From: Trypanosoma brucei
Taxonomy: Eukaryota
NCBI GenBank assembly: GCA_000002445.1
Contig: CP000068.1
Span: 480,001 to 544,000 of the forward strand
DNA: 64,000 nt
Reading direction: 5' to 3'
A program made the translations under genes and the position numbers. The notes beneath the pieces were generated by a model that saw only the letters and a list, made by a program, of their open reading frames with translations, was not told the origin of the DNA and searched no databases. Of the stretch, positions 14,455-44,141 are shown piece by piece (within the stretch, counting starts at the first letter, position 1; each line of letters starts with the position of its first letter).

Positions 14455-14958
14455 CTAGAAAACATAAAGGCCGTAGGGGTTGTGTCGGTACCTCATTGGA
14501 TTTTCCGTTGAGCAGCTTGCCGAGAATTCGCTACGGCACTTTGGGTGTGGGGGTTCTTTATCCGAGTCTGACGACTCAGTGATGGAATTGTACACTTGCT
14601 TGCTTCCCCCCTCACTCCCCTCACCTCCTTGGGTGGCATCTTTCTCTGCAGTCAGCTGAGACGGGAGAGAAATAAAAGTGGGTTGTCGTCGCATCGTGGG
14701 TGTGAGGACGAGGGATGGGCTGTCAGATGGCATCCCGCGGGTTGGCGTCTTCACGGGTAACGCAACGCCATCCAAACGTCGGAGACCGGTTTCTCGGAGA
14801 AGCTTCATATTCTGTTCTTCGGTATGCAGTTGGTGTTCACCGTGCGCGAACGCACAACGGTCCCCGTACGGACATTGCCCATCTCGCTGATAGTGTTCAC
14901 ACAGTGTCGTTCTGTACTTGGACGGTTTCACCTCCACGTGCTTGTTCTTCTTTGCCAT
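14455..14958 (-). CDS. ZC3H12: TIS11-like CCCH zinc-finger RNA-binding protein (ZC3H12-like)
   Basis: 167-aa ORF with ATG start. It has a single C-x8-C-x5-C-x3-H finger, CEHYQRDGQCPYGDRCAFAH, preceded by the KYRTTLC lead-in. From memory, the T. brucei chromosome-5 pair ZC3H12/ZC3H13 has this small-then-large tandem arrangement. Confidence 0.8.
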   Translation of the reverse strand: MAKKNKHVEVKPSKYRTTLCEHYQRDGQCPYGDRCAFAHGEHQLHTEEQNMKLLRETGLRRLDGVALPVKTPTRGMPSDSPSLVLTPTMRRQPTFISLPSQLTAEKDATQGGEGSEGGSKQVYNSITESSDSDKEPPHPKCRSEFSASCSTENPMRYRHNPYGLYVF

Positions 14959-16640: not shown

Positions 16641-18341
16641 TCACAGAGGGTACACGGGCACACATTTATCGGATTCTGCACATGACGACTGAAAGTAGTT
16701 AGCGACAACAGGGCGGGGTCGTTGAGCTGGTGGTATCGCACGATGTTGTTCACTTGGACACACAACCTGCGACGTGGCTTCACCAACTTTTCTCGCACCA
16801 CTTCCACCAGCTGCGGAGAAATCTTCCCCTCTTTCAACTGCTCTTGACGTCCATTCTTTGCCCGAGGATACTTCCGCTTGATCCCTTTGGATCTCACTGC
16901 CACCAAGTGCAGCATGTGCAAATATGTTCACATCACAGCCACGAAGGATACTAGTGAAGTCAACATTTCTGTTGTGCTCTTCAACGCTACCTCCTGCTCC
17001 CACACCACCATCACTCTGTTCAGAAGCTACTGGCCGATGAGATCCTCTATCAGCTCGAATTTCGTATAGCTGAGTCAGTCCTGCAGCGGTACATTGCCTA
17101 TAGATACTACCATTTTTCTCATCTCTTGGGTCAGTACCCGCATTCTTGTCCGCGAGAGACTCGCTGATGAGCCGTGAATCAAGTAGGGACCTAAAGTCGG
17201 ATATCTCCTTGGACTTTGTCGAAGGAGGTTCCTTCACTTTGGGGTTTCCGAATTCACCGACGTCGTAGCTGGAGGCATCGTTGTCCTTTCGAAGAGTCGA
17301 ACTCCCTATCCCTTCGGTACATGACGCACTGGACCACGTGGTAGGTTGGTGGGGCAGCGAAGTCTTCATTGATGTTTCGTACACACCCCCCAGGTGCGTA
17401 GACGGGTCCAAAGAAGGCAATACTTCTCCCGCACTTTGTGGAGTCAATCTATTTCCACTACTCCCGCTATTTACGGGAATATTGCCAACAGTATCAAATG
17501 CACGAAAGGCTAAATCCGTGGCACAGTTGGCATTTTCAACCTCCGTTGTCCTTGTTGTGACGAAAGAATTCACCATGTGACCATTAGAAATCCACGCTAC
17601 ACCATCACCAAACGCTGCCTCACTTGGTATTCCCACGCTTGGGATAAAAGGGCCAACATATGGTGGAGGAGCTCCCGGAAAGGGGAAAAGGAAAGCACCC
17701 GGGGCGAGTTGCACGAGTTGTCCTGAGGTGTCAGCCAAGTTCACAACACTAAGATAAACATTATTGCCGCTGGTAGGGTAATGTACACTCGTAGGTTGAA
17801 TTGTACTTTTGGCTTCGACACCCCTCGCTTTGTTTGTAAATACGCTCATATTCGCACGATTTTGCCTTGACAACTTACCTTTCGTTATTTTTGGCGGTGG
17901 TTTAACTCCCTTTAATTCAGTATCTTCCGTAAATGGCACGGTAGCCTCGGAGTTGCTCAGATGATGGGGTGATCCGACACTGCTTCCCCCTTTTGGAGAG
18001 AGAAGCTCAGCTTCATGCCATGAACAGTATGTTACTCTTCCACTAGCACCAGCCGTTGTCTCGTTTGCAGTGCTTTCCATTCCGCTCTCAAAACTGGCAC
18101 ACGGCAAGACAGACCTTTGCTCAGCATTACTACCTCCCTGGGCGCTTTCCACATTAGTGTCGCCACGTTCTCTGCTGTCTCGACTCTTTGGTCCTTCTTC
18201 CTCATGCCGCAACTCATCCTCCCCGTGCGCGAATGCACATCGATCACCAAACTGACACTCACCATTTTCCATGAAGTAGGTGCAAAGAGAAGTTTTGTAT
18301 TTTGACGCCTTCACGATATCATGTTTCCGGTTTCTCGCCAT
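16641..18341 (-). CDS. ZC3H13: TIS11-like CCCH zinc-finger protein with long S/T/P-rich tail (ZC3H13-like)
   Basis: The track ORF 16641-18401 begins at a TTG codon, not ATG. The first in-frame ATG gives MARNRKHDIVKASKYKTSLCTYFMENGECQFGDRCAFAH, which parallels the ZC3H12 N-terminus MAKKNKHVEVKPSKYRTTLCEHY... It has one CCCH finger and then about 500 aa of low-complexity S/T/G/P-rich sequence. Start moved to 18341 on that basis. Confidence 0.75.
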   Translation of the reverse strand: MARNRKHDIVKASKYKTSLCTYFMENGECQFGDRCAFAHGEDELRHEEEGPKSRDSRERGDTNVESAQGGSNAEQRSVLPCASFESGMESTANETTAGASGRVTYCSWHEAELLSPKGGSSVGSPHHLSNSEATVPFTEDTELKGVKPPPKITKGKLSRQNRANMSVFTNKARGVEAKSTIQPTSVHYPTSGNNVYLSVVNLADTSGQLVQLAPGAFLFPFPGAPPPYVGPFIPSVGIPSEAAFGDGVAWISNGHMVNSFVTTRTTEVENANCATDLAFRAFDTVGNIPVNSGSSGNRLTPQSAGEVLPSLDPSTHLGGVYETSMKTSLPHQPTTWSSASCTEGIGSSTLRKDNDASSYDVGEFGNPKVKEPPSTKSKEISDFRSLLDSRLISESLADKNAGTDPRDEKNGSIYRQCTAAGLTQLYEIRADRGSHRPVASEQSDGGVGAGGSVEEHNRNVDFTSILRGCDVNIFAHAALGGSEIQRDQAEVSSGKEWTSRAVERGEDFSAAGGSGARKVGEATSQVVCPSEQHRAIPPAQRPRPVVANYFQSSCAESDKCVPVYPL

Positions 18342-21300
18342 ATTACCGGCTATATAAGGGTCCCAGTATATATATATTTGACACCTCTCTACAGGCAACA
18401 ACTGTGGTTATATCCCTCCTATATTCGGACCTTCCAGTCGGCGACCTGTAGGAATTGCTATGGGAACGAAAAGCACTCCTAACCTCCAGAATCTCTTATG
18501 TGCTCTTTCTCGAGGAAAAAAAGAAATTACGAAAAAAAGCTCCAACGGCAGTAAGAAGGTAAGGCAGGGAACACAGTTGTATTCGGTACCCCAAATCGGT
18601 ACTACAAGAAACAAAGCCGATAATGTCATATGAAACAAACAACAAAAAGGGGAAAACATTTCAATAAGGGACAGCCTTCGGCTGCAGAGTTTTCCTTTCC
18701 CGTACTCACGTCTCAGTTGGTGTTTCAGTAAAAAAGGGTTCTTCCACATGCATGCGGATTACTACAGAGAGAACACAACCAGAAATCAATCACCACCGTT
18801 CAACGATGCATCTCAAACAATAAACATCAATGACCTGCTTTTCCCCGAGTGAGGGAATAGAATGAAGAGCAATTACATTTCAAACGACAAAATATCAATA
18901 GCAATTTAGAAATACTATAAGAGAACACATCACCGTACTATTTGAGCCGAAAGACATCAGGTGTGTATGACATCCCGTTTTAAGCAAGGAACAGACACTT
19001 AAAAAGTACTCAAAATTGTAAAGCAGCGATGCCGCCGTTACGTAAAGCAATATCACACGGGAAATACAAGGCTTCGCGTACCGAGGTAGTGGTTCAACAA
19101 CTGTACAAATACCGGTAAGATATCAAACAAGTTGACTGAGTATGCTGGAGGAAGTTACCAACTACACAACAAATACTTTGTTCTCAACCGTATACAAGAG
19201 TTTTTAAAAAGGATATGATCTAAGGTATTTCATGCATCTGCTTGCCATTTGAACAAATAATTAAAATGCACCCCGCGTTCTACAACGAGCGGCTAAATAA
19301 TAACAACAATAATACAACGATGATGAATTAAAGTAAAAAAAAAATGATGATCTACACGCAAACGCGGTTGACACCCCGCAGCGTAAAAAGAACAAACGAA
19401 CACTCAAAACTGTGAGGGTAGAAACAATGGAAGCAGTACGTCAATGAGTAAAACAAGCCCTTGCTTTGGGGGGAGGTAAATAATACGAAGCATCGAAATT
19501 CACGCTACTTTAAAGTAAATTCCTCTCGCGAACTTCAACCGTTAGTTTGAATTACACACACCACTGGATTAATTCCCTCTCTTCAGAGCCGTGTCAAATA
19601 CTTCCCATCCGAAACATCGGCAAACATGCAGGGATGACAGCGAATGCTTGTCACACCTCAATATATACAATCCATAAAACACAAGACAATACCAGGTTCT
19701 GTACACATCAGTCAGTTACGAAAGCCGTAACACGGTAATTGGTTAAATACAAACGTAAGCATGCGGATGTTAGTGCATGTATCCCGCCACAGCAAGGGGA
19801 TCCGGAAAAAGAAACACCAAAATGAAGCCAGCAACGTCTAAAAGTAGCGCAATCGATCAGACAGATGCGAAGACACACGATGCAGACATTTTTTTTAAAT
19901 GCAGCAGCAGTTCTCCACCGACAAATATTACAACGAAAACAGAATATTCCACGACACTAATCCCACTAAACGGAAAAAATGGGTCAGAACATCCACCAGC
20001 CGCACACTTATGTTAGAAAGCAACGCCACTCCATCCCGCACAAACATCCAATGCCCTCTCTGAAGGTTACAACTGCCCTGCATCTGCGTTGAAACAGACT
20101 AACAAAAAATAAAATAAAATAACCGCCTCTGCCTTCAAAGGGGGTGGGGGCTGCACTCGCCTGCGGCAGCTCTCTTAAAAAACGGCCGCGCTTACTGTTG
20201 TGCCTCCGCTGACGTTGACATTTGGCCAGAAGAGGTGAAGGGCTACTGCTCACAGAAGGAGACGCCGCACGAAAAGCTGCGAGGATAGCACACGGCCATG
20301 TACATGCCGGAGAGGGGCCGCGGCTTCAACTGGCATTGGTGCAAGTGCGCTCAACAATGGTGCGTAAAGTACTCACCGCGGTCCCATTAGCAGCCACCGG
20401 GGCGGTACATTTCAAGCCACAGGCTGCAGGTGGTGAGGTGCACCAATCCGCTTGCCGCGTCGCCACTTCCGCCGGTTATCAATACCAAGTGGTAATTAGG
20501 GCGGGGCCCCCGCAAGAAAAAAAAAACGAAACAGCCACCAAGGAGCAAACGGTTGAAAGGGGCAAAAAAAAAAAAATAACGGCAAAGAAGCGCGAGGCGC
20601 CCGCCGACCTAACGACATTGGCAGGGTTGCTTTAAACGGCACCGCCAAAGCGAGAAACAACACCCCCACTTGAAAGGGCCGCGCGGACGTCGACCGGGCT
20701 TCATTAGCGGTGGGAATCTCTGAAAACATCAGGCACGCAAATACCCGGGCGCGGCCTGCACACCATACCGGTTGTTCCTTGTTTCTGGAGGCTGTCGCGT
20801 GTCATCAAGACGGTACCTACTGTAGTGTGCCTTGTGGAACGTCCATCGATGACAGATACGGGCGAGAGTGGAGACGGTCCCTCATTTCTTGAGGAAAAGG
20901 CAACCCCCCCCCCCCAAAAAAAAAAATAATAATAATGAAAAATGCAGGTAATAGTATTCGCCGGCGCACCTCCCCTTTAATTTCGTTTGGAACGTTTCCT
21001 GCAAGATTAAGGAGGGGATTATGCGTCGCACACGGAAGGGCATGATAGAACTAACCCGAAGAAAAGTAACGACAACCTTCCTATTCGTGCTTTCTCACCG
21101 TTGGATAAAGGGTAATGGTCAAACGGGCAGAAGAACCGACTTCACGCTACAACAATGCTCGGTGGGGTGGGTGGTAGTCAACGCAGCCGCGTTGAAATTT
21201 GAAAAGAGAAGAGCGGTGAAATACAAACTTGAGAACAACCAAAACGATAAAACATGTAGATGTGAGCTTTTGCGGAAAACTCGCCTTGCCGGAAGAGATT

Positions 21301-24300
21301 GCTTCCTTCGTCGAGTCACAGACATCTGCGCAGTGCGGCGTACCGGACAATGGCGCCGCGGCTTGGCAGGTGGCCGCACAACTGGGTGCATCAGCTGAAA
21401 GTAAACGAAGCGTCGGAAATACACCGGAAAGGAGCCAGAGTGGCGACGGTATTAAGGGTAGAATTGCTGTCACCACGTCTACAGTAAAAACTTTGGATAG
21501 AGGCGATCGTTGTGGAAGCACCCGCCGAAACACGTTTCAAATAAATCTGCAACCGTGCTCCCAAGGGAAAAGGCAAAGAAAAAAAAAGGGAAGCAGCGAC
21601 GGAGGGGAGACGTTGAGAGGTTGCTCTTTTCTCAGGTACGCTAGCGGATGGAGTGTTTTTAAAAAATATTCGCCCGTTGTCCCAGTGGCAGAAAGAGGAG
21701 GGGAGGCATTTGGGGAAGTGGTCGTAGAATAGTTAACATGCACATAAAGAAAGGAATTGCCTAACAGAGTTTTCGTATTTTGGACAACAGAGGTTGCTGG
21801 GGGATCATGAGCGTGGGAGCCTTAAGCCTCCAGCGGTTCCCGGTCGTGAGCCCCTTCAAAAAGCAGCTGAGTAGCTGTTGAGTCTACAACGATAGATTTG
21901 AGAGAGAGATAGAGGAGGGTAATTAGCGGACCCAACTTATTCTGTGCCTGTGGCCCCGCAATTATAAGAGGGTTTCATTTCTTGACAGTTGAGGCTCTTG
22001 CTGCGGTAGACTGGTCTTGAGTTTTTTTTTCCAAGCACAGCCCAAACTGACAGGAGCGGCGACTGACTCAAACACCTTTATCAATTTTGCTACGATCGCA
22101 TCACTATTTCCGTCCCATGTCATTGTAGTATAAACTGGTAGTCGCTTCTTGCTCCATTCAAACGGTGGGGAATCTCTGAGGCAGCGGTCTCCTCCGCTTC
22201 TCAAGGCAGTTCACATGCATAACTTATCTTGCAGAGGTGCTGTTGTGGCTGGTGATGAGCAATTTGACATTCATTAATTGGTAAGTAGTTTAGAGGAGCT
22301 CAAAGGCGTTATTTGATACGGCAGTTGGTTGTTTTGTTTGGAAACAAATTGGGGTCATATTGGTTCTAACTGTCCGTAATAGGGCGGCTCGGACAATCCG
22401 AGGGAGTTTTTCCCCTTTCAATTACTATTCATCACGGGATTTTCAATAATTTTATTGTTCATACTTTTTTTCGTTTATTGTAATTTATCATGAAAATGCG
22501 TGTGCCAATAATTTTTTAAATTATAATTTCTATTTGTCATTTCGTTTTTTTCTCTAAATTTCTTTTTACAATGTTTTTTATTTTCATCGAGATGAAACTG
22601 GATTTTCGGTGTATGAGGTTTTAAATTGAATATTAGTGGGTTATTGTAGCTATTTGTTGAAGGAACATCTTGTTTATTTTACTCTGTTGTTTTATATTGA
22701 GGTCTCCCCTATGTTTTCACTGATGGTTGGGGTTTTGTGTGGATTATTCTCATTTCGTTTTTTCTTTTTGGCGCCACGACCGATCGCTGATGTGTCTGGT
22801 TATTCGATGTGCGTTAAAAAAATTTAAATGGTCGTGCGGACATTCTTTGGCAGTTGTGTGTCAATGGAGACGTGCACGTGAATCGCCACTTTGTTTCAAG
22901 TAGACATGTTTTAATTTTTTAAACCTAAACCTAGCTCTCTTGAAGCGTTGCACAGTCTGGTCGGTGAAGTTGCAGTTGGTGCAATTTTTTGCTCTGTGGG
23001 ATCAATGCTTGCTCTGCTTGTACATCCCGATATGTAGGCCCTGATATGGGTTCTAAATAATGTTGTTTGGGTAATTAATAGTGTTTGATGACGTGTTTGC
23101 TGGTGTTTTCATATCGAACCTACTTGTTGTTTGCAATGCCGTGTGACATATCTTCCCTTTCGTGGAGCATTTTTTTTTAAATAGAAAAAAGTTTCTTGTG
23201 GCGCTTTTTATCTTTTATATTTTAGGGAGATTAAAATTTGATTTTCAACCGTTAAAAAGTTCTTGTTATTTATTTTCTTTCCCACTTTACCTTGAGATTA
23301 ATGTTGTTGATGCTAGGTAGTTTATGTTCCGACGTAGTGATTAATTGTTTAGTTTGTATTGTATGCTTGTCCATAGTTCGTTTATTCTTACGGATGCCTT
23401 AGTGGTGCAGATACATGGGAGTCGTGCTGTGAATAGACAAAAAGAATAACTATATACTTTGAAGATTAACAGATTGCACCTCTCCGGGGGAGGGTATACC
23501 ATTTTTGTTGTTGATTTCACGTATTTTGCGGATTGACCAGTTTACCACTTCAGGCCCAGTAACAGTTGTTCTAAGATCATTGATGTACTTTTTATTTGGG
23601 TATCCTGTATATTTTTATCAAAAGGTTATTTTCTATTACACGCAAAGTTTCTCGTACCTGTAGAAATGCTCTTGGGTTAACTGCACTCTTTACTTACATT
23701 GTGCTAATGAGTGATATGGACGTATGTGTCCAGTTGAATATTATTTTTCTCGCGTATTATGTGTTTAATGTTTTTCAATTGCTCCCCTTTCCTCATCTCC
23801 GTCATTTGTCCTCTTATCTTTGCTAGACAATAATGGTAAATGCATCCGATAGTAAACAGCACTTGCCTAAAAAAAATTATACTTCATACGGTGCTATTAT
23901 TATTTGTAGGCAAGTGCTGTTTATCACTGTTATTATTATCATTAATGTTATCTTTTGTGAATCTTGTGGCTGGCTTTATCTTTTTTACTTTGTTGTTACT
24001 TTCCCCTATTCTGCTGTTACTGAAACATGTTTCGTCGACTATGTGATACACAATTTTGTTATAACGTATGTGTTTGAGTTAATAGATGTAGATAAAAGAT
24101 GCCACTCCATAATGCATTTTTATTGGTTCATTTCTCTTCCGGAGGAAGATGCTTCCATTTTTTTATTTTTTAGAAATTTAAATGGGTTTATTTAATTATG
24201 ATTGTGTACGGCACATTTTAAACCAGATTTCGCTCTGTTTTGTTAATGTACTTATGCCAAAATGCGGGGTATTTTGTTTTATAAAGTGTTAAATTTATTT

Positions 24301-25211
24301 TCTGATCTTTGTGGTGCGTAACGAAAATTTAACACCAACGATCACCCTCGGACAAACCACTTTAGATATTAAATAACCGGAACTACTATGATCCTAACAA
24401 TATATAAGAATATACAAACATCTGTAAAGTTTTAAAATTTGTATATACTTATAATTTAAGCGCCTGAGCAATGGCCAACTGCATCGTTTAATATCACTTT
24501 CATTTTTCATTTTTTTTTAAAAAACGATGTCTGTGTTGTTATTGATCGGAGAAAAATTAGGAGGTTGCGTGTTATTCTATTTACCCTCCTAACAGTCACT
24601 TTCTTTTTTTTTCACGACGATTTCATCTCACTTTGAACCCAACGAGTTGTGTGATTTTATTGCCAGAATATGCGCTGTTACCTCTTTGAAAATTCATAGT
24701 TCATGCTTTTTGAATTCAACGCTTGAGTTTTATCGAAAAGAAGCGAATGAAGTCTTTTCCCTTTTCATCGTTGTGTTGCGGCACCGATGCTTTTTTTTTT
24801 CTGGCTCCACTTACGAACAGTTGGAAAAAATATTTTTCCTAGTGCGAGTGCAGAGCAACTGGTCAGCTTTAAAAAGTTTTTTTTAGAATGCTAAACTTTA
24901 AAAAATAATATCGTGTTGTCATCCAGATACATTTTAGAAAATGGTTAGCAACTGGGATTGCAAGTCATATATTCTGGCACACGTTGATGTTTGGTTTGAT
25001 ACATATTTTATTGTGTTATATTTTTGCTATTATTTTATTGGGGAATTTATCTTCGATATGCGCTCATAAGCACCGACTTCTTTTTATATTTGTACTACTA
25101 CTGCAACCTGACCACCGTTCATATGTGTATATATATTAACTACAGTTTCTTGCTCGAAGGGTCCGGCACCTTAAGGTACATTAGCGTAGTAAGGTTGTTG
25201 GATTTACCGCG
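18342..25211. promoter_or_regulatory. divergent strand-switch region, candidate bidirectional RNA pol II transcription start region
   Basis: All confident genes to the left are on the minus strand and all to the right are on the plus strand. The roughly 7 kb interval has no long conserved-looking ORF. It contains a GC-rich block (about 20150-21750), an AT/T-rich block (about 22400-24650) and a C13A11 homopolymer (20904-20927). In trypanosomatids, pol II initiates in such divergent regions without a classical promoter. Confidence 0.55.
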
Positions 25212-25976
25212 ATGGTGATAAAGAAGGATGTTCCTTTCAAGTACACGCTACATCAAGGACTATGTGAGCGGGATCCAGTTTTGAGCACCCCTTTGATAAT
25301 TACGGCGGGAGTAGATGGCAATGAATTGCAGTACCGTCTTGACATGCAAGTTCCATCGCATTCAGCTATTGAAGGCATGGAGGTTACTAACGTGGAGTTC
25401 CTCTTTACAAGTAGCAAATGTAACGCGGGTAAATCAAATCAACATCTTTCTAAGTGTAGCATGTTAGTGTACTTGTACATGCAACTGCTTGATGGTGTAG
25501 GCAGACCCACGAGTCCACCGTTTCCTATATCATGTTGCAACACCCATACTGGGAAAGGCATTTTTTCGTGCGTAAAGCTGCCCCTTCAGGTTAATCAACA
25601 GTGCAGATTCTATTTGGTTCGAAGAAGTTGTACAGATAGTGCTTCCCAGAGTGCTATGGAACTTAAGGGTGTGCGCTTTACCAGTAAGTTGTACCTTTTG
25701 TATCGTTCACCGCTGAATTCTGCAAAAGTTCGGAGTCAGATGGACGTACTCACAGGTGGCGATCTAAAATTTACGGCAGATACCGAAGTAATGACTTCTA
25801 CCGGTGCGAAACGCAGTCGTGAGGAATTAGAGCGATTCGGATCTGAAAATTCTGATCGCAAGGGGAAAAAAGCAAAGAGGGAAAGGGAAACGGCGACCAC
25901 GATGGATAGGGCTTCCGATGATGAACCCCCAAACCTTATTTATGCCTTCGTGTCAGGAGGAGACAATGAGAGTTAA
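25212..25976 (+). CDS. hypothetical protein, first ORF of the plus-strand array
   Basis: 254-aa ATG-initiated ORF, the only long ORF inside the strand-switch interval. Codon composition resembles neighbouring genes. The C-terminus is basic and acidic (KRSREELERFGSENSDRKGKKAKRERE). I recognise no domain. Counting it makes the gene total match the locus numbering I recall for this chromosome-5 segment, which is weak support. Confidence 0.4.
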   Translation: MVIKKDVPFKYTLHQGLCERDPVLSTPLIITAGVDGNELQYRLDMQVPSHSAIEGMEVTNVEFLFTSSKCNAGKSNQHLSKCSMLVYLYMQLLDGVGRPTSPPFPISCCNTHTGKGIFSCVKLPLQVNQQCRFYLVRRSCTDSASQSAMELKGVRFTSKLYLLYRSPLNSAKVRSQMDVLTGGDLKFTADTEVMTSTGAKRSREELERFGSENSDRKGKKAKRERETATTMDRASDDEPPNLIYAFVSGGDNES

Positions 25977-27905
25977 TAATTGTGCGCATATTAAGTTCGC
26001 CATCCCCCCCCCCCCGAGGCATGCTGTCAATATTTTTGACCGTCGCATTATCACATTGCGGCATTTTTTTGCCTGTAGTTCCGTTTTTTCTTGGTGATTT
26101 TTGTCGGTTTTACCTTTTCGATTTATACATATCTACATTGCCACGATTAAGATCCGCTTTCTTCATGTTAATGAAAACAAGCATCATTACTTTTCTCCTC
26201 TGTGACATGTAAATTCGCAAAAAAAAAAACTCTTTCCCCACATTTTCTTAGTTTTAATGTAGTACATACGGTGGTTCATAATTTAGATGGCTGCTATTTT
26301 CTAATGCTTAGATTCACAAAATACTTTAAATAAGTAAAGTGAAATTGGCTATGCATTTTTGGACAAGTGTTTAAGGCCTTGTGTGAATAACATTACTTAA
26401 CTTTCTGGATTGCTGTATAAATGGTTGAGATGACACTACTTTTTTGTTTTTTTTAATTTTAAAGATGAGCAAGAGGGTGTTTGTGGTTTTCTATGTACCT
26501 CATTAATTTCATACAGCGATAAATTTCTATCATTCTGGAAGTGGGTTTCATTTGCGAGGGAATCAATTGAGATGTTGGTTTTTCAACGTTGCGAGAGAAT
26601 CTCTTGGACTGCTGCAATGACACAGGAAGTTACAACATTGATGTCACTACATTTTTATTGGCAAAGGCGATCGTAAGAGTGCGCGGTATATATTCCCCAA
26701 CGTGAAGGGGGAAATGCGTAAAATATGCATGTGTGTGAGCTTGGCCCTTTACAAAATATAAAATATAACAGCAGAGTAGTAGCATTCTACGGTTTCTGTT
26801 AGACTTTCCATCTTCTTACTGCAATGATGTGAGTTCCTTTGTTACGTGTTTCTTTTGTTTTTGCAGTGTGACTCAATTGGAGATATCCGGGCGTCTGTAC
26901 CGGGGTACGCGCAACTAATGAAGGAAATACTTTAGTATCAACTATTTTTCTTTACCTTTTGCGGAACATTTTTAAAAATTATTATTATTTTGACCGTTGT
27001 TATGTGATATTAAAAAGTTGATAGTGTTCATTTGTTTTGGTTTTATTACACCGAAGACTCGCTATCGGTGTTTTTAGTGTATTTTCTCAGTTATCGTTTT
27101 GCTTTCCTTAGCAGCACGTGGTCAAGGGTTCGATTTTTTTCCCCCTTTGCCATTTGCAGGTGTTTTTGCTGCGACACGGTAAATGGGGATGCCAGCAACT
27201 GAGTTGTCCTGGTAGCTTGGGCAGATATGTCATTTTTCAATTCTACCCAACATCTACAGTTGTTTGATTCATTTCTCTCTTATTTTTATTTTTTACTTTG
27301 GTTTTTTTAAACATTTGGAAGATGACATCCTGAAGGATCGGGGTGATATACCTTCTAAAACGATAAATGGCACGGGGCTGCAATTTAACAGCAAGTTACT
27401 ACCTCAGGAATTACTGGTGATGAACTAAGGTAGTGAAGACCATGCGCGCAGTCCTGTTCGCTGCCGTACCGTCCGTGTGCGGTTTGTAAACAGCTGCAAA
27501 CTTACTTTCTTTTATCGATCGATTTGTTTTTTTAAAGATAAACTTTTTGCAAGGGATTTTGATGTACTCAATTATTTTTGTAAATATACGTGGTTTCGTC
27601 ATTCGAAAAATCTTTGAACACGCGGCAATTCTTTAGGTAACTGTGGGATCGCGTCTTCTTTTTATGCGACGGCATTTAAACGTAGGAGCTGCTGTTCTGT
27701 GAGGTTGCTGTGACTTACTCTGCACCATGGTTGTTCACTGCTCCCTTAATGCTTCTATTTTTTGAAATGTTTAAATCTATATCCCATCGTGTTTAACGCA
27801 CTTGTAGGAAAACCCGCGGAGAACAACATTTATTTTTGTCATCATTAATGCTATTATTACCCTTTTTTTTTGCAATCTCTTAATAGGGTTTACGTGGTCA
27901 TTTGA

Positions 27906-29762
27906 ATGAGTGAACCATTGATGGCTAGGTGTGCATCTCTGCTGGACATCTTGGTTCCCCGTAGTGTTGAATGCTTAAGCAATGCGAAGGTACAGAACGA
28001 ATCGTGCTGCGCTATACAGTACGACCGAATTTTGCGTGTCCCGGTTCTGATTATGAAAGGAGACATCTCGAATGCCCGTGTTCAGATACCGCGTGATGGC
28101 AAATCACTTCCTGTAGTTCCGCTGCCGTGCACTCTCGTAGCTCTCCAGGCGTACATTGGATCTTTTGACACCTTTGCGTTGGAGGTGTCAGTGAGCACTA
28201 AGACTTCTCTTCGCGTGAAGCTGATTATTGGGACTCACTTTAACAAGACGTCGTTGGAGGACACCGGTAGCAGTCTGATTCTCTTTAGGATGCCCTTGAT
28301 CATACCGCGAAACAGATGGGTTCAAATAGTATTTCACATTTCAGGAATCGTAACGCATCTTCTTGAACTGCCGCCAATTAAATTCATCGACGCAATATCA
28401 TTGAGTGGCACATGTAAGGCTTCGCGCTTGATGGCATCCAATAGTGAGGAGGTTGTAGTGAACGCAACACCCAGTGACATGACTCTCTTTGCTGTTCCGG
28501 CGTATGCGCCCCCGATTTGGCAGACCGTTGCGGCCTCTCCACCCCCGAACGGGACCTGCAGTGACAATAATAAAAAAATTAGTGGTCGCTCTCCACAGAA
28601 AGTTGCTAAAGACCGCTTACCCGTTGTAGTGAAGTCGCCATTAAGAAGGGACGATGATACTGCCAATGAGGGTGAAAACGACTCACCAAAGCATAATGTG
28701 GTGCGAACAGCTGCTACAAGTGCTTCTAACGGCACACCATCGCCCCCGTACAAACAAATAGGGCGCGAGGTTTCGGCTATTGAGAGTACATCAAGCGCCA
28801 ACTCCTTTGATGTGCCGCCGGAAGGTCGGGCGCCAAGTTTGCCAGGTGACTTTACAGATGCCCGCCGAGTCAAGCAGATGCCTAAGCAACAGGTCGGTCA
28901 GCCCGCTGCGAGGTGCGGATCTGCCGCTTACATACGGCTGGTAAGCGGAGCGAACTTTCCGCCACGTAGCAGCAGTAACCCGACTGTGAAACCGCGTCCG
29001 CTTCACTTAGGGGCAAAGGAACAGAGTCCTAGTGCGGTTACAACTCCCCCGCCACCCCCTGTCGAAACATACCCGGGTGTATGCGATCTTTTGTTTGATG
29101 CCTCGTATGGCATCACAGGTTGGGGGGAAACCGCCTGTCGTGCAAGTACTGCTGCTTCAGCCTCTCCTCCTCGTGCCGGAAGCGATGTAAAGTGCAGGTC
29201 GGCGCCAACTGCGGCAGTACCAACCAACCGAATATCTGGTGGTGCAGTGAGTGAGTGTAAAACGAACGGATTAGCGGAGCAGGTTTCCCCGAAAGCGAAA
29301 CGGTTGAAAAGGGTTATAGAAATAAGGCGGCGGTCATTCGTCCCCCCCACTAGGCGCCGGAAGCCGTGCGGTGGTGATGGTCAAAACGGTGAAGGCAACG
29401 AAACAGGGGCGGCCGCGGGCGGTACGTCCAGGAGGTCTGCTGTTAGTGTGAGGCGGCTTTACATGCGAAAGAGGATCAGGAAACTAAAGGAAGCACAGAA
29501 CAGCGCACGTCGCATGCAAGAAATGAAAAGACTTCCAGCGTCTGAACTACCCATAGACCCTCAGGACGAGGCACTTATGATGGTTGGTGAAGAGACAATG
29601 AATGTCACGCGTGAGCCACGTTGTGGTTACGGTTTTGGTTATCTTGGTGTCCTTCATGAGAGTGGCGGATTTGAGGCGGATGAGAATGCTGACACGGAGT
29701 TGAAGGGCGCTCTCACGCTGGAGCTTTCCGAATTATCCGATGGTGAGGAAAATGAAGAATAG
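27906..29762 (+). CDS. CFAP20/DUF667-domain-containing protein with long disordered S/P/A-rich C-terminal extension
   Basis: 618-aa ORF with ATG start. The N-terminal roughly 190 aa follow the CFAP20 (BUG22) pattern: FALEVSV...LRVKL...FRMPLIIPRNRWVQIVFHISG...GTCKASRLMAS corresponds to the CFAP20 blocks FEVQV...MPMRLDDGWNQIQFNL...ANCRIRRV. The remainder is low-complexity with a KR-rich patch (RRLYMRKRIRKLKE). Confidence 0.5.
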   Translation: MSEPLMARCASLLDILVPRSVECLSNAKVQNESCCAIQYDRILRVPVLIMKGDISNARVQIPRDGKSLPVVPLPCTLVALQAYIGSFDTFALEVSVSTKTSLRVKLIIGTHFNKTSLEDTGSSLILFRMPLIIPRNRWVQIVFHISGIVTHLLELPPIKFIDAISLSGTCKASRLMASNSEEVVVNATPSDMTLFAVPAYAPPIWQTVAASPPPNGTCSDNNKKISGRSPQKVAKDRLPVVVKSPLRRDDDTANEGENDSPKHNVVRTAATSASNGTPSPPYKQIGREVSAIESTSSANSFDVPPEGRAPSLPGDFTDARRVKQMPKQQVGQPAARCGSAAYIRLVSGANFPPRSSSNPTVKPRPLHLGAKEQSPSAVTTPPPPPVETYPGVCDLLFDASYGITGWGETACRASTAASASPPRAGSDVKCRSAPTAAVPTNRISGGAVSECKTNGLAEQVSPKAKRLKRVIEIRRRSFVPPTRRRKPCGGDGQNGEGNETGAAAGGTSRRSAVSVRRLYMRKRIRKLKEAQNSARRMQEMKRLPASELPIDPQDEALMMVGEETMNVTREPRCGYGFGYLGVLHESGGFEADENADTELKGALTLELSELSDGEENEE

Positions 29763-31077: not shown

Positions 31078-31746
31078 ATGGTTTTACCAAGCCGCAGGTC
31101 GCTGAATCGCAGCTCCCGCAAGGGCTTCAAGAAGCACCGTCCTGACATTATTGTTATTGACCTGAAGGACCATGTATTGGGTCGTGCGGCCGCCATCGTC
31201 GCCAAGCAGCTGCTGCTCGGAAAGAAGATAACTGTGGTCCGTTGTGAGAAATTAACAATTGCAGGATCGGAGATTCGCAACAAGATCAAGTACCTGCAGT
31301 TCCTTCGCAAGCGGAAGCTGTCAAACCCGAAACTTGGACCATTCCATCATCGCAGTCCCTCTGATGTGTTTATCCGCACAGTTCGCTCCATGCTGCCGCG
31401 TTACACAAAGCGAGGCCAGCGCGCGCTCCGCCAGCTCGTTGCTTACGAGGGCGTACCCGTCAACGTCGTGCGTACCGGCGGTCGTGTGGTGATTCCCAAG
31501 GCGCAGCGTCACAACTGCTACCGTAACGAGCGCCGCTTCACGGTGTTGGGTAACATGTGCAAACACGTTGGATGGAAGTACAGCGACGTTGTGGAGAAAC
31601 TTGAGGCAGCCCGTATTGAAAAGTCCGGGCGTCACCACAAGAAGATGGAAAAGGTTCGCGTCGCTTGGAAGAATGCCCGCAAGGAGGCCCTCAAGAAGAT
31701 GCCCCAGAAGAATGTGGAGGTTCTCAAGAAGTTTGGTCTTGCGTAA
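31078..31746 (+). CDS. RPL13A: 60S ribosomal protein L13a (uL13)
   Basis: 222-aa ORF with ATG start. It is strongly basic. Conserved L13a blocks include VIDLKDHVLGRAAAIVAKQLLLGKKITVVRCE and KYLQFLRKRKLSNP. Confidence 0.9.
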   Translation: MVLPSRRSLNRSSRKGFKKHRPDIIVIDLKDHVLGRAAAIVAKQLLLGKKITVVRCEKLTIAGSEIRNKIKYLQFLRKRKLSNPKLGPFHHRSPSDVFIRTVRSMLPRYTKRGQRALRQLVAYEGVPVNVVRTGGRVVIPKAQRHNCYRNERRFTVLGNMCKHVGWKYSDVVEKLEAARIEKSGRHHKKMEKVRVAWKNARKEALKKMPQKNVEVLKKFGLA

Positions 31747-40302: not shown

Positions 40303-42403
40303 GGAACTCCATAATTGTTGGTTTTCTTTTGTTTTCTTTTTTTTTTTTAAAGGAAAACCCCCTCTTATATTGCCGTTGCGTATCACTGGCTGATAAAGAT
40401 TTTGTGTCGTCAGGTTGGTTCAATGCTGTTTTTTTTTCCCCCTTTCCTGCCCGCATCTTCGATCCTGTCGGCGGTCACTTTCACTTTTGCTCTCACTGTC
40501 GCTTTCGTTTTTTTCTTTTCTTTTAAGGGTTCGTCACATTAACCACTGAAAAGGAGCAATCCCTGTATGAAGAATGGCTGCCTTCCTACTGTTATCATAA
40601 TTGTTATTGTTTGGAATCATGGGAAGAAAACATATGCGGGAGAAAAGGGATGGTAATACGGTAGTACACATCAGGGGCAAATAACTAAACAGCTGAGTTT
40701 GCGAAGTTTCTTTTTTTCTTTTTCTCTTTTTTTTTCCCCCCTCTCTCTCTCTCTCTTTCTAATTTATCCGTGAGTGGGGGTGATTATTGGCTTTCTTATA
40801 TCAGCGATGGCTCATTGCGTGTTGATTAGTATTTAAAAAAAAAAAAAAAGCAAAAACAAGAAGAAAAAAAAGCTCGAGATCACCAACGGTAAACAAGCAA
40901 TAAAACAAAACAGAAAAAATAAAAGTAAAAAAAAAATATATATATGATATTCAAACTCGGAAAGCGGAGGTCATGGACCACCCAAGCAACCGCAACAAAA
41001 GTAAAATAATGGAAAAAGAAGAAAAAAAGAAAGAAAAGATAGAAGGCGAAGCCAACAGGGGAAGTGACAGAATGAAACGTCTGACGAAACAAAAAAGATG
41101 AACTGAGGAAATAAAATGGAGACACAGAAGGGGAAATATATAAAAAGTGAAAGTGAGAAAAAAAGAAAGAAAAGAAGCCCTTCACGATGGCGGTGGAATG
41201 GATTGCAGTGAGTGGAACCTAAATAAATATAAATATATATATATGTTTGTTTGTGGGTGTTTGTGGGTGTTTGGAAATAGCCAAACGATATCGAGCAGAT
41301 GCTGAAAGGAAGTTGTCATGCAAATAAAGTGAAGGCAAATAACAAAGGAGAGGGAGCGAGGGAGGGAGAAAAAGAGAAAAAAAAAAGAAAAAAGAAAAAA
41401 AGAAAATAGAAAGAGACATTCAAAGACGTAAAGCAGAAAACACAAAACAGAAAACAACAACAACAACAATACCATTAATAAGTGGGAGAAATGCGTAAGT
41501 AATGAAATGCGCCGTGGTCCTGCGTGCGAGGTCGTGGTTTCAGTGGTTGACCATTTTGTTTATGTTTTTACCCCCTTCCCTTTTTCTTTTTTTTTTTAAA
41601 AAATATCTGTCGTGGATGGGTTTCAGTTCGGCTAGTGCGTTTATATTTAGATATTTATGTTTTTTATGTATGCTTCATACATGTAAACATATATATATAT
41701 ATTATTTTTTTTTTTTGAAAGAAAATATATGTGCGTGCGCGGTGCCGACTGATAAGAAAAAAAAAAGAAAAAGAAAATTTATTAACATTACGAGCGTAAA
41801 TTTCGACATTTTTGCGCCGTATTTGAGTGCTTTAAAGTTATCCATAGATTTCCATGCTTCCGGCGTGTGTGTGTGAGAGAGAGTGTGTGTGTTTTGTGTT
41901 TTGTGTTTTGTGTGCGTTATTTGGAGTATGCGGCCGCTACGCAGGAAGGTAGCTGGAACTTCTTTTTGTTTTTTATTTTTAAAAAGTTAAAAGTTAAAAA
42001 GAATCGGGGAGTGTTTAACCAAAAGCAAAGGGAAGGAGAGGAGAGGAGAGGGGAGGGGGCAAAAAAAAAGTTCGTTACGGCAGAAGAAAGAGAGGGAGGA
42101 AAGAGGAGGAAACTAAACATGAATGTCAGGTTTTGCTTCTTTTCATTTTTTAAATTTAAATTTCGCTGCCACAGTTGCGTGCCGTTTCGCTCATTATTTT
42201 CCTCTCGTTTTCCCATATATATTGATATATACATTTCTTATTATCACTATTGTTATCATTTTAGTGGTTTAAACCCCTTCTTTTATTCTTATTGTTATTA
42301 TTACTTTCCTTTCCCCCATTCTTTTTCTCTACTGTTTGTCCTTGAGGGATTATATTAGTAACCCTCATACTTCGCCTTTTTCACTTTTATATGTTATATA
42401 TAA

Positions 42404-42404
<1 letters not shown>

Positions 42405-42443
<39 letters not shown>
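42405..42443. repeat. compound microsatellite (TA)~10(TG)~11
   Basis: Read directly. It is one of more than 10 simple repeats in the 39.9-44.2 kb spacer. Confidence 0.85.
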
Positions 42444-43385
42444 AAGGTTACATAAATTTTAAATAATATATTATCAAATTTATTGTCCAAAATTTGTTTC
42501 TTTTCTCCCTTTAGTTTTCTTCCTACAAAATTTTGAGTTGCCCCTCCGAGTGGTCAGCACCGATACGTGGCCGCCTTTTTTTTTTTTGAATATAAATAAA
42601 TAAATAAATAAATATATATATATATCTTATCTTTTTATTGTTTGGTCTTATTTGTATATGCTTCCATTCCATTCCATTCCCTTCACTCACCTGTCCTTTA
42701 CCATCTAATTCAATCCAATCCGTTTCTTTTTTTTTATATAAAATTATCATATCATCCTGCAGGCGTATATATATATATATATATATTTATAATTATTGCT
42801 ATTGTGATCGATGTTATAAACGGCGAAAGGTGAGGGGGAAAAAACAACAACAACAACAACAACAAAAGAAAAAAAAGAAAAAGAAAGTGAAAAATTCCCA
42901 TTATTGCCCAGGGTTGCAAGGTTCATGTGAGGGAGAGGAAAATTAATGTGTGTGCGCTTGTATATATATATATATATTTATTTATTTATTTATTCATTTA
43001 TATAATGCATTTATATGTTTTTTCCCGTTATATTCAAATATATGTGTGAACGTGTTGTGTCTGCGGAAACAAACAAATAAACAAAAAAAAAGGGTGAGGG
43101 AAGGAAAAAAAAATGTCTGTGAAACACTCCCCCTTTTTCTTCTAATGTGTGCATTTGCATTGTCCGCTTAGATGCGTTGCCTGCAACTAGCACCTTGGCA
43201 GCATTTCATTCATTCATTCGTTTTGTTATTATTATCATCATTATTACTATTATTTAACTTAGCGGTTTTGGATTTACTTTACTTTTCTTTTTTCCTTCCC
43301 TTTTGTGTATGTTTATTTTACCTTTCTTTCATCGCACTGACTTGTGCCAAAGCCTTTTTACCGTGTCCGGTTGTTATTATCATCA

Positions 43386-43393
43386 TCATCATC

Positions 43394-43444
<51 letters not shown>
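43386..43444. repeat. (TTA)~19 trinucleotide microsatellite
   Basis: attattattatt... run read directly. Confidence 0.9.
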
Positions 43445-44141
43445 GCGCTTCCCGAGTTCTTTCGTGTGTACTTTTCCCACTTTAAGTAGTGACGTATCGC
43501 CTTCATTTTGCTGCAATATTCCCCTTTTTCCTTTTCTTTTCATTTGTGTGTTGCGTCGTCTAATTTTTTTTTAATGTTTTTTTTTTCGCCGCTGTGCCCA
43601 CCACAACAATTTGTTTTGTTTTATATTATTTGTTTGCCAGTGAGATAAGACTTAGTGCTGAAGGGAAGTAAAACATTAACGAAACAGAACAAAAGCTAAA
43701 GCAAACTAAAGTGTAGCTATTTAAATTAAAGCCAGAATAAAGTGAAAACAAAAACAAAAAAAAGAAAAGGCATCTCTCACGAAGCCAGTAGGGCATAGGG
43801 AATAACAGAAGTATTAAAAAAATTAAAAAATAAGATCAAAAGAACCATTCAAAAAGGTGTGGTAGAGAAGCGCAGTGAGGTTATATAAATATCACATAAG
43901 TTAAGCAAAAAAGAAAAGAAAAAAGGAAAAAAAAAAGAAGACCATAAAGAGAGGGAGCAAAAAAATAATAATAATAATAATAACAGGGGAAGACAAAAAG
44001 GAACTTTTTTTTTTTTAAAAAGAAAAGAATTATCAATAAAGGAAAACATTCAGATACAAGAGGGGTTTCGGTTTCACGGGTTGGGTGTAGCTAACGAAAA
44101 AAAAAACGAAAGACACGAAAAGGCAAAGCAGAAAAGGAAGA

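What the first reader, a model, noticed from the sequence alone, without database searches (positions are those of the whole stretch)
25212..25976. Orphan 254-aa ORF inside the strand-switch region, possible first gene of the plus-strand array
It is the only long ATG-initiated ORF in about 9 kb of otherwise non-coding DNA. Its composition is coding-like and it ends in a charged tail. It is flanked by AT-rich sequence on both sides and followed directly by a C12 tract. It may be a lineage-restricted gene or a spurious ORF. Its position right at a presumptive transcription start makes it worth testing either way.
Basis: inference. Interest (0 to 1): 0.5.

Follow-up and report, generated by a model that had tools for sequence, protein, structure and literature searches.

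The report
Conserved trypanosome nucleolar protein gene
The "orphan" ORF is a real, already annotated Trypanosoma brucei gene (Tb927.5.1590) that heads its transcription unit and encodes a small kinetoplastid-only nucleolar protein whose job is still unknown.

Summary
The 254-codon ORF at 25212-25976 (+) exists as described. It is far longer than chance allows: 0 of 500 simulations reached it. It is a genuine gene, Tb927.5.1590 on T. brucei chromosome 5. TrypTag tagging primers for that gene match the window exactly.

Full-length orthologues occur in T. congolense, T. vivax, T. cruzi, T. grayi, T. rangeli, Leishmania, Phytomonas, Lotmaria and unnamed kinetoplastid-like contigs. Downstream synteny is conserved and dN/dS is about 0.35. 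Published data detect the protein in nuclear and whole-cell proteomes, and both N- and C-terminal tags place it in the nucleolus.

In T. brucei, Leishmania and Phytomonas it is the first gene after a divergent strand switch. In T. cruzi and T. rangeli a Kelch gene precedes it.

The protein has three parts:
- an eight-stranded jelly-roll core;
- a disordered tail with a KRxR nuclear localisation signal;
- a strongly conserved extreme C-terminal peptide (PxLxYAxVxGGDDES), plus a conserved N-terminal peptide.

Verdict: ordinary, already annotated, lineage-restricted gene of unknown function. The C12 tract is a common intergenic feature.

The parts
25212..25976 (+). Coding sequence of Tb927.5.1590 (254 aa, 28.3 kDa; stop codon TAA at 25974-25976)
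   Evidence: ORF. It is 100% identical to T. brucei TREU927 XP_844833 / UniProt Q57VA4 and to T. equiperdum TEOVI_000062000. TrypTag primers match exactly. The cullin paper supplement gives Tb927_05_v5.1:562307-563071(+), length 254.
25212..25253 (+). Conserved N-terminal peptide, residues 1-14 (M-x-x-x-x-x-x-P-F-K-x-T-L-H)
   Evidence: Mean top-residue frequency is 0.56 across 23 family members. It is not packed in either AlphaFold model: pLDDT is below 50 for residues 1-13. This also validates the ATG at 25212 as the start codon.
25281..25697 (+). Eight-stranded beta-sandwich (jelly-roll) core, residues 24-162
25482..25526 (+). Family signature Q-L-L-D-x-x-G-R-P-x-x-x-P-F-P (residues 91-105), at the end of strand 4 and the 4-5 loop
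   Evidence: This is the most conserved internal segment. Loop 94-103 has mean top-residue frequency 0.60, D94 is invariant and Q91 is at least 90% conserved.
25722..25778 (+). Helix 171-181 and short strand 185-189 that follow the core
   Evidence: Secondary structure and pLDDT of 77-90.
25809..25886 (+). Basic clusters in the disordered tail (KRSR 200-203; RKGKKAKRER 216-225), the predicted nuclear localisation signal
   Evidence: A K/R-K/R-x-K/R motif is present at the equivalent tail position in most family members. pLDDT is below 50 for residues 193-233. Nuclear and nucleolar localisation come from published data. That these residues are the signal is an inference.
25917..25973 (+). Extreme C-terminal conserved peptide DDEPPNLIYAFVSGGDNES (residues 236-254); family consensus P-x-L-x-Y-A-x-V-x-G-G-D-D-E-S-COOH
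   Evidence: This is the most conserved segment of the family, with mean top-residue frequency 0.63, and always lies at the very C-terminus.
25077..25145 (+). Predicted trans-splicing signal: polypyrimidine tract 25077-25085 and the first downstream AG at 25144-25145, which would give a 5' UTR of about 66 nt
   Evidence: Sequence scan only. Not verified with spliced-leader data.
26004..26015 (+). C12 tract 28 nt after the stop codon, in the 3' UTR or intergenic region
   Evidence: It is also contained in the published TrypTag reverse primer. It is one of nine C or G runs of 9 or more in the window.
20904..21500 (.). Centre of the divergent strand-switch region: a C12A11 tract followed by the point where G+T content flips from the minus strand to the plus strand
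   Evidence: In 500-nt windows the plus-strand G+T fraction is 0.38-0.47 up to 21000, 0.48 at 21001-21500 and 0.53-0.65 from 21501 to 25000. Sequence. That transcription starts here is inferred from composition and gene orientation.

Best explanation
The ORF is the protein-coding gene Tb927.5.1590 of Trypanosoma brucei chromosome 5. It is the first gene of the plus-strand polycistronic unit that leaves a divergent strand-switch region. It encodes a 28-kDa nucleolar protein found only in kinetoplastid-type organisms.

Shown here or in published data: the gene is conserved, syntenic and under purifying selection, and the protein is made and sits in the nucleolus.

Inferred, at roughly 30% for this specific mechanism: the protein acts as a small nucleolar binding or adaptor module rather than an enzyme. 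An eight-stranded jelly-roll core presents one conserved face, built from the alternate loops 47-52, 94-103 and 127-129 and including the invariant QLLD..GRP...PFP signature. This face would bind a nucleolar ligand such as histones or rDNA chromatin, ribosomal proteins, or a pre-ribosomal particle. The disordered tail carries a KRxR nuclear localisation signal. The invariant C-terminal peptide (PxLxYAxVxGGDDES) and the N-terminal peptide (PFKxTLH) would serve as short docking motifs for a conserved partner or for self-assembly.
For: Gene identity:
- The protein is 100% identical to TREU927, T. b. gambiense and T. equiperdum proteins.
- TrypTag primers listed for Tb927.5.1590 match window 25133-25211 and 25894-25973 without mismatch.
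- Published chromosome coordinates give a length of 254 aa.
- The neighbours are ZC3H12 (Tb927.5.1570) and ZC3H13 (Tb927.5.1580).

Real gene:
- ORF length exceeds all 500 simulations.
- Orthologues at 41-43% identity cover the full length in T. cruzi, T. c. marinkellei, T. grayi and T. rangeli.
- More distant members occur in T. congolense, T. vivax, Phytomonas, Leishmania and Lotmaria.
- The downstream order target, [Metallophos], 520-640-aa gene, uL13 is conserved.
- dN/dS is 0.38 for T. cruzi against T. rangeli (dS 0.69) and 0.33 for T. brucei against T. cruzi.

Expression and location:
- Three peptides were found in 3 of 4 nuclear preparations and none in the 4 comparison samples, a log2 enrichment of 4.3.
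- Five peptides at 21.7% coverage were found in a bloodstream-form SILAC proteome.
- TrypTag records N-terminal tag 'nucleolus[strong]' and C-terminal tag 'nucleolus'.

Architecture:
- The AlphaFold2 core has block pLDDT mostly 84-97 and the tail is disordered.
- Conservation alternates between loops, and the two termini are the most conserved parts.
- KRxR is present in most members.

Head-of-unit position.
Against: - Nothing argues against the gene-level claims.
- No interaction, knock-down or binding data were found for the mechanism, and no paper's main text mentions the gene.
- The 'one conserved face' argument assumes standard jelly-roll connectivity. I could not inspect coordinates.
- A C-terminal fluorescent fusion, which buries the free C-terminus, still reaches the nucleolus. 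The C-terminal peptide is therefore not needed for localisation, and its role is unknown.
- Four family members lack it altogether.
Confidence: 0.85

Rival explanations
1. It is a true, highly diverged member of the nucleoplasmin / nucleoplasmin-like (NPL) family. On this reading it is a pentameric nucleolar histone chaperone, like NPM1, plant HD-tuins or Fpr3/4.
For: - P. falciparum NPM, Drosophila NLP, FKBP53, FKBP39, NPM2 and NPM1 also appear.
- The overall layout is an N-terminal beta core followed by a disordered charged tail with an NLS.
- The protein is nucleolar, as NPM1, HD2 and Fpr3/4 are (PMC4414354).
Against: - Profile-profile comparison with six PDB-derived HDT and FKBP NPL domains gives probability 0.3%, and the only alignment is spurious.
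- None of the 23 members hits the Pfam nucleoplasmin or NPL models.
- Carbohydrate-binding modules, PNGase F and viral capsid jelly rolls score the same Z.
- Foldseek does not rank NPL domains in its top 50.
- The beta-sandwich core alone (residues 24-162, about 140 residues) is much larger than an NPL core of about 95 residues.
- The tail is about 60 residues with net charge near zero. It is not the stretch of more than 100 residues of mostly acidic sequence that typifies the family.
Confidence: 0.15
2. It is a component of the RNA polymerase I machinery. [quoted passage not shown]
For: - Strong nucleolar signal.
- A size near 28-31 kDa.
- It is restricted to kinetoplastids.
- It has a C-terminal NLS-bearing tail. 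From my own recollection, not from a tool result, RPA31 of T. cruzi is reported to have a C-terminal bipartite NLS (Canela-Perez 2018).
- Reviews state that RPA31 is trypanosomatid-specific and that A14/A43 and A49/A34.5 orthologues are missing.
Against: - I could not find the RPA31 gene identifier in any readable paper.
- Every database name for this protein is still 'hypothetical' or 'uncharacterized', including a TriTrypDB header used in a 2025 paper. That would be odd for a subunit named in 2007.
- A review calls RPA31 a possible divergent RPA43. RPA43 has an Rpb7-like fold, not a jelly roll (this fold assignment is from my own knowledge).
- No Pol I subunit appears among the fold hits.
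Confidence: 0.08
3. It is a spurious ORF in non-coding strand-switch DNA.
For: It is isolated in about 9.5 kb without other long ORFs, has no Pfam domain and shows only a modest GC3 signal.
Against: - Length significance.
- Full-length orthologues across the family, with indel-free conserved termini.
- Conserved synteny.
- dN/dS below 0.4.
- Peptides in two proteomes and tagged-protein localisation.
Confidence: 0.01
4. The conserved ...V-x-G-G + 4-residue C-terminus is a processed conjugation tail in the manner of ubiquitin-like, SAMP/MoaD or Pup tags. The protein would be cleaved after GG and ligated to targets.
For: - G-G lies four residues from the C-terminus in 18 of 19 motif-bearing members.
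- It is preceded by an alternating hydrophobic stretch (L-x-Y-A-x-V) and sits at the end of a disordered linker.
- The resemblance to ...FPPVSGG tails of MoaD/SAMP is from my own knowledge.
Against: - One member has G-D.
- The residues after GG (D-D-E-S) are as conserved as GG itself, which is unusual for a discarded propeptide.
- A C-terminal mNeonGreen fusion is still nucleolar, like the N-terminal fusion, so the tail is not efficiently cleaved off.
- The fold is not beta-grasp.
Confidence: 0.02

Closest known systems
Tb927.5.1590 (UniProt Q57VA4, XP_844833; old id Tb05.30H13.850), 'hypothetical protein, conserved' of T. brucei TREU927, and its annotated orthologues (TEOVI_000062000, TCIL3000_5_1520, TRVL_04416, TCDM_06452, DQ04_11101020, TraAM80_02924, LSCM1_06833, Phytomonas CCW72043, Lotmaria N2W54_006805)
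   Same: It is the same gene, with an identical protein sequence, and published tagging primers map to it exactly.
   Different: Nothing differs. The public annotation carries no function. The domain and motif description given here is new, but it is descriptive only.
Nucleoplasmin-like (NPL) domain proteins: nucleoplasmin/NPM1-3, plant HD-tuins (HDT1-4), NPL-FKBPs (Fpr3/4, FKBP39, FKBP43/53)
   Different: There is no sequence or profile similarity. The core is larger and carries an extra helix and strand. The tail is short and not acidic. The oligomeric state is unknown. The family also has unique conserved N- and C-terminal peptides.
Generic jelly-roll binding modules (CBM6/CBM36, Fbs1 sugar-binding domain, viral capsid and phage decoration proteins)
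   Different: Those modules are extracellular, viral or cytosolic proteins with no NLS or nucleolar role. Sequence identity is 3-14% and TM-scores are 0.33 or less.
T. brucei nucleolar proteins reported to have a nucleoplasmin-like fold (Tb927.8.1230; also Tb927.6.650) and the ISWI partner NLP
   Same: They are nuclear or nucleolar trypanosome proteins described as nucleoplasmin-like.
   Different: They are different genes. I had no sequences for them and made no comparison. NLP is, from my own recollection and unchecked, much larger (about 85 kDa).

Membership tests
Bona fide trypanosomatid protein-coding gene | Full-length orthologues in other species at the syntenic position | tested here: met
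   The order target, [Metallophos], 520-640-aa gene, uL13 is kept from Trypanosoma to Leishmania and Phytomonas.
Bona fide trypanosomatid protein-coding gene | Purifying selection on the reading frame | tested here: met
   Nei-Gojobori dN/dS is 0.38 for T. cruzi against T. rangeli (dS 0.69) and 0.33 for T. brucei against T. cruzi (dS saturated at 1.6).
Bona fide trypanosomatid protein-coding gene | Protein product detected | tested here: met
   From published supplements: nuclear proteome with 3 peptides, SILAC proteome with 5 peptides at 21.7% coverage, and tagged protein visible in the nucleolus.
Bona fide trypanosomatid protein-coding gene | Mapped spliced-leader acceptor and polyadenylation sites | not testable with these tools
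   Only a candidate polypyrimidine tract (25077-25085) and AG (25144) were found. The held supplement of the spliced-leader-trapping paper does not list the gene.
First gene of a polycistronic transcription unit | No conserved same-strand gene between the strand-switch point and the gene | tested here: met
   No tblastn, tblastx or blastn conservation was found in 18402-25211, and the skew flips at about 21 kb. The same position holds in Leishmania and Phytomonas, but not in T. cruzi or T. rangeli, where a Kelch gene comes first.
Nucleoplasmin / NPL family | Sequence or profile similarity to nucleoplasmin or NPL domains | tested here: not met
   hhalign of the family (A2) against the HDT1-4/FKBP43/FKBP53 NPL alignment (A3) gives probability 0.3%. 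No Pfam hit was found in any of 23 members.
Nucleoplasmin / NPL family | Eight-stranded beta-sandwich superposable on NPL cores | tested here: inconclusive
Nucleoplasmin / NPL family | Homopentamer (or decamer) with a central pore | not testable with these tools
   Only monomer prediction was available.
Nucleoplasmin / NPL family | Long (more than 100 residues), predominantly acidic, unstructured tail after the core (PMC4414354) | tested here: not met
   The tail is about 60 residues. Its net charge is -1 in T. brucei and ranges from -12 to +4 among members that carry the C-terminal motif.
Nucleoplasmin / NPL family | Conserved His (strand 3) and Asp (strand 6) lining the pore, as in NPL-FKBPs and HD-tuins | not tested
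   No residue-level structural alignment was available. The family does have an invariant Asp (D94) and a mostly conserved His (H14), but their equivalence is unknown.
RNA polymerase I subunit RPA31 | Identity with the gene named RPA31 and co-purification with Pol I | not testable with these tools
   The gene id of RPA31 was not found in readable papers. All database names for this protein are 'hypothetical'.
Ubiquitin-like / Pup-like conjugation tags | C-terminal Gly-Gly exposed by cleavage | tested here: not met
   GG is not invariant (GD in P0011). The four residues after it are equally conserved. A C-terminal fusion stays nucleolar.

The most novel reading that the evidence does not exclude
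The family is a previously unrecognised, kinetoplastid-specific relative of nucleoplasmin-type chaperones. It would work at rDNA chromatin or on nascent ribosomal particles. It would be recruited or assembled through its invariant C-terminal PxLxYAxVxGGDDES peptide, a new short linear motif whose receptor is a conserved nucleolar protein.
Probability: 0.15. Interest if true: 0.5.

Novelty: already known. Interest (0 to 1): 0.25.

Why it matters
The check settles that the ORF is a real gene and not noise in a strand-switch region. It also shows that the plus-strand unit of this T. brucei locus begins with a nucleolar-protein gene whose head-of-unit position is shared with Leishmania and Phytomonas.

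For trypanosome biology the protein is one of many 'hypothetical conserved' nucleolar proteins. The description given here (a jelly-roll core, one conserved loop face, and invariant N- and C-terminal peptides) supplies concrete mutants and baits for finding its partners. It does not change any current view.

Tried and rejected
- Pfam scans of the protein and of all 23 family members found nothing consistent.
- PDB sequence and profile searches gave only chance-level hits: colicin D and Rcf1, with E around 1.
- tRNA and Rfam scans of the whole window found nothing. No tandem repeats were found in the intergenic region.
- A profile search of the word-indexed protein database with the wide alignment returned only proteins already in hand.
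- A search for other proteins carrying the C-terminal motif failed. The first query was too short and the E-value cap was too low. The concatenated-motif query then found nothing.
- I looked for remnants of the Kelch and Metallophos genes that flank the orthologue in T. cruzi. There are none in the window.
- My guesses at Leishmania gene ids (LmjF.15.0170-0190) pointed to unrelated kinases and phosphatases.
- The RPA31 gene id could not be recovered, and the 2007 RPA31 paper is not held.
- The spliced-leader-trapping supplement lacks the gene, and the nucleolar-targeting paper supplement lacks it too.
- I considered PIP-box, LIR, SIM, PY-NLS, HbYX, PTS1 and RVxF readings of the C-terminal peptide from memory. 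I rejected each because the positions those motifs require are not the conserved ones in the alignment.

Full report
**Observation.** The window carries an ATG-initiated ORF at 25212-25976 on the plus strand, encoding 254 residues. It lies in a 9.5-kb gap between the last minus-strand ORF (16641-18401) and the next long plus-strand ORF (27906-29762). In 500 first-order Markov simulations of that gap, the longest ATG ORF averaged 111 codons and never exceeded 220. ORF GC is 0.45 against 0.35 in the flanks.

The C12 tract is at 26004-26015, 28 nt after the stop codon. Nine C or G runs of 9 or more occur in the window, including another C12 at 20904-20915. It is therefore a common intergenic feature and not a signal tied to this gene. 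The charged tail is real.

**Identity.** The translation is 100% identical to proteins of T. brucei TREU927 (XP_844833, UniProt Q57VA4) and T. equiperdum, and clusters at 90% identity or more with that of T. b. gambiense. All are named hypothetical or uncharacterized.

The neighbours fix the locus. The CCCH genes at 14455-14958 and 16641-18401 correspond to ZC3H12 (Tb927.5.1570) and ZC3H13 (Tb927.5.1580). The uL13 gene at 31078-31746 fits Tb927.5.1610, which is described as a translation component.

The TrypTag supplementary table lists Tb927.5.1590 (old id Tb05.30H13.850) with its tagging primers. The gene-specific parts of two of these primers match window 25894-25973 and 25133-25211 without mismatch. 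A 2025 proteomics table gives the gene as Tb927_05_v5.1:562307-563071(+), 254 aa, 28.26 kDa. This places the window at roughly 537,096-601,095 of chromosome 5.

**Is it a real gene?** Yes.
- Full-length orthologues at 41-43% identity exist in T. cruzi, T. c. marinkellei, T. grayi and T. rangeli.
- An exhaustive profile search found 23 representatives at E below 1e-3. These include T. congolense, T. vivax, Phytomonas, Leishmania martiniquensis and Lotmaria passim, plus unnamed assemblies.
- Gene order is conserved. In T. cruzi and T. rangeli it runs DEAD helicase (-), ZC3H12 (-), strand switch, Kelch (+), target (+), Metallophos (+), 642-aa gene, uL13, then further genes. All of these except Kelch and Metallophos have tblastn matches in the same order in the window.
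- dN/dS is 0.38 for T. cruzi against T. rangeli (dS 0.69) and 0.33 for T. brucei against T. cruzi.
- Published data show the protein. There are three peptides in 3 of 4 nuclear preparations and none in the 4 comparison samples (log2 enrichment 4.3, p = 0.011). There are five peptides at 21.7% coverage in bloodstream-form cells.
- I could not test SL and polyA sites. The sequence offers a polypyrimidine tract at 25077-25085 and a first AG at 25144.

**Position in the transcription unit.** No other conserved coding sequence was found between 18402 and 27905. The plus-strand G+T fraction is 0.38-0.47 from 18 to 21 kb and 0.53-0.65 from 21.5 to 25 kb. The flip lies next to a C12A11 tract at 20904-20926, inside a GC-rich non-coding island. 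By inference from composition and orientation, the divergent switch is centred near 21 kb and the target is the first plus-strand gene, about 4.3 kb downstream.

In Leishmania and Phytomonas the orthologue is also the first plus-strand gene, about 1 kb from a divergently oriented WD40 gene. In T. cruzi and T. rangeli a Kelch gene precedes it. Whether the head position matters for its expression is not known.

**The protein.** Two AlphaFold2 runs were made, with 6 and then 23 aligned sequences. Both give the same picture, and the second has mean pLDDT 75 with block pLDDT mostly 84-97 in the core:
- residues 1-13 are unpacked;
- eight strands between residues 24 and 162 form a beta-sandwich;
- a helix (171-181) and a short strand (185-189) follow;
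- the tail from residue 193 is disordered.

Across 23 members the most conserved segments are the extreme C-terminal peptide (consensus PxLxYAxVxGGDDES-COOH), the loop after strand 4 (QLLDxxGRPxxxPFP, D94 invariant) and the N-terminal peptide (MxxxxxxPFKxTLH). Loops 47-52, 94-103 and 127-129 are conserved, while loops 35-39, 68-83, 111-117 and 140-148 are variable. In a standard jelly roll this would place the conserved loops at one end of the sandwich. That is an inference, because I could not inspect coordinates.

A KRxR-type basic cluster is present in the tail of most members. TrypTag records 'nucleolus[strong]' for the N-terminal tag and 'nucleolus' for the C-terminal tag.

**Comparison with known families.**
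- No Pfam model matches any member, and no PDB sequence does.
- Carbohydrate-binding modules, PNGase F and viral or phage jelly rolls have the same scores.
- Foldseek ranks birnavirus VP2, lambda gpJ and the Fbs1 sugar-binding domain first, with TM-scores of 0.33 or less.
- I rebuilt an NPL alignment from PDB sequences of HDT1-4, FKBP43 and FKBP53. Profile-profile comparison with the family gave probability 0.3%.
- The tail is short and roughly neutral, not long and acidic as in NPL proteins.

The nucleoplasmin resemblance is therefore a lead that fits the nucleolar location. Membership is not supported.

I also considered the Pol I subunit RPA31, which is trypanosomatid-specific, essential and nucleolar. 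I could neither confirm nor exclude it because its gene id was not retrievable. The persistent 'hypothetical' label, including in a 2025 TriTrypDB header, argues against it.

A ubiquitin- or Pup-like reading of the C-terminal GG is contradicted by three observations. One member has GD. The four residues after GG are equally conserved. The C-terminal fusion is retained in the nucleolus.

**Mechanism.** The following are shown: the gene is conserved and expressed, and it encodes a nucleolar protein. The rest is inferred. The protein has no catalytic signature. It looks like a binding module with one conserved loop face, an NLS-bearing linker and two terminal docking peptides. I put about 30% on this adaptor or chaperone role in rDNA chromatin or ribosome assembly. 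Of that, about half (about 15% overall) is for a true nucleoplasmin-type chaperone. I put less than 10% on a Pol I subunit. The remainder is unknown.

**Verdict.** The gene is already annotated, detected and localised in public resources, so novelty is low. What remains open is its function.

Noticed in passing
window 18402-27905, compared with L001/L002 7683-9512 and 11165-12367 and L003 7649-9448 and 11213-12415: T. cruzi and T. rangeli have a Kelch-repeat gene just before the target and a Metallophos phosphatase gene just after it. Neither leaves any tblastn trace in the T. brucei window. The target-Metallophos pair is also present in Phytomonas and in two unnamed kinetoplastid-like contigs (L007, L008). 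Leishmania lacks the Metallophos gene at this position, as T. brucei does.
   Followed up: partly
window 14455-14958 (-) and 16641-18401 (-): There are two related CCCH zinc-finger genes in tandem, ZC3H12 and the much longer ZC3H13. The T. cruzi and T. rangeli loci show only the short one, so ZC3H13 looks like an addition on the T. brucei side.
   Followed up: partly
window 20000-22000: A GC-rich (0.49-0.55) island with no conserved ORF sits in the middle of the otherwise AT-rich strand-switch region. It contains a C12A11 tract at 20904-20926, exactly where strand composition (G+T) flips. It is possibly the bidirectional initiation zone.
   Followed up: partly
window 27906-29762 (+); L006 12286-13899; L007 2982-3957: The 618-aa gene after the target has no Pfam hit in T. 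brucei. Its positional counterparts in Phytomonas and in an unnamed kinetoplastid contig hit the CFA20 domain (E = 1.6e-7 in L007).
   Followed up: no
window 41000-44000: A second AT-rich stretch (GC 0.31-0.35, with strong G skew at 41-42 kb) lies inside the plus-strand gene array, with only a 163-aa GTG ORF listed. I did not examine it.
   Followed up: no
proteins P0020, P0021, P0025 and the C-terminal part of P0022: A sub-group of family members (162-171 aa, from unnamed assemblies) keeps the QLLD..GR...PPF signature. It lacks the C-terminal GGDDES peptide and ends in a basic tail. Its N-terminal motif is P-x-K-R-T-L-H rather than P-F-K-x-T-L-H.
   Followed up: no
PMC12816148 supplementary file 6, row for Tb927.5.1590: In a SILAC proteome of a cullin knock-down in bloodstream forms, the protein shows a ratio of about 1.2 with a significance flag. 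I did not read the column headers, so the meaning of the flag is uncertain.
   Followed up: no
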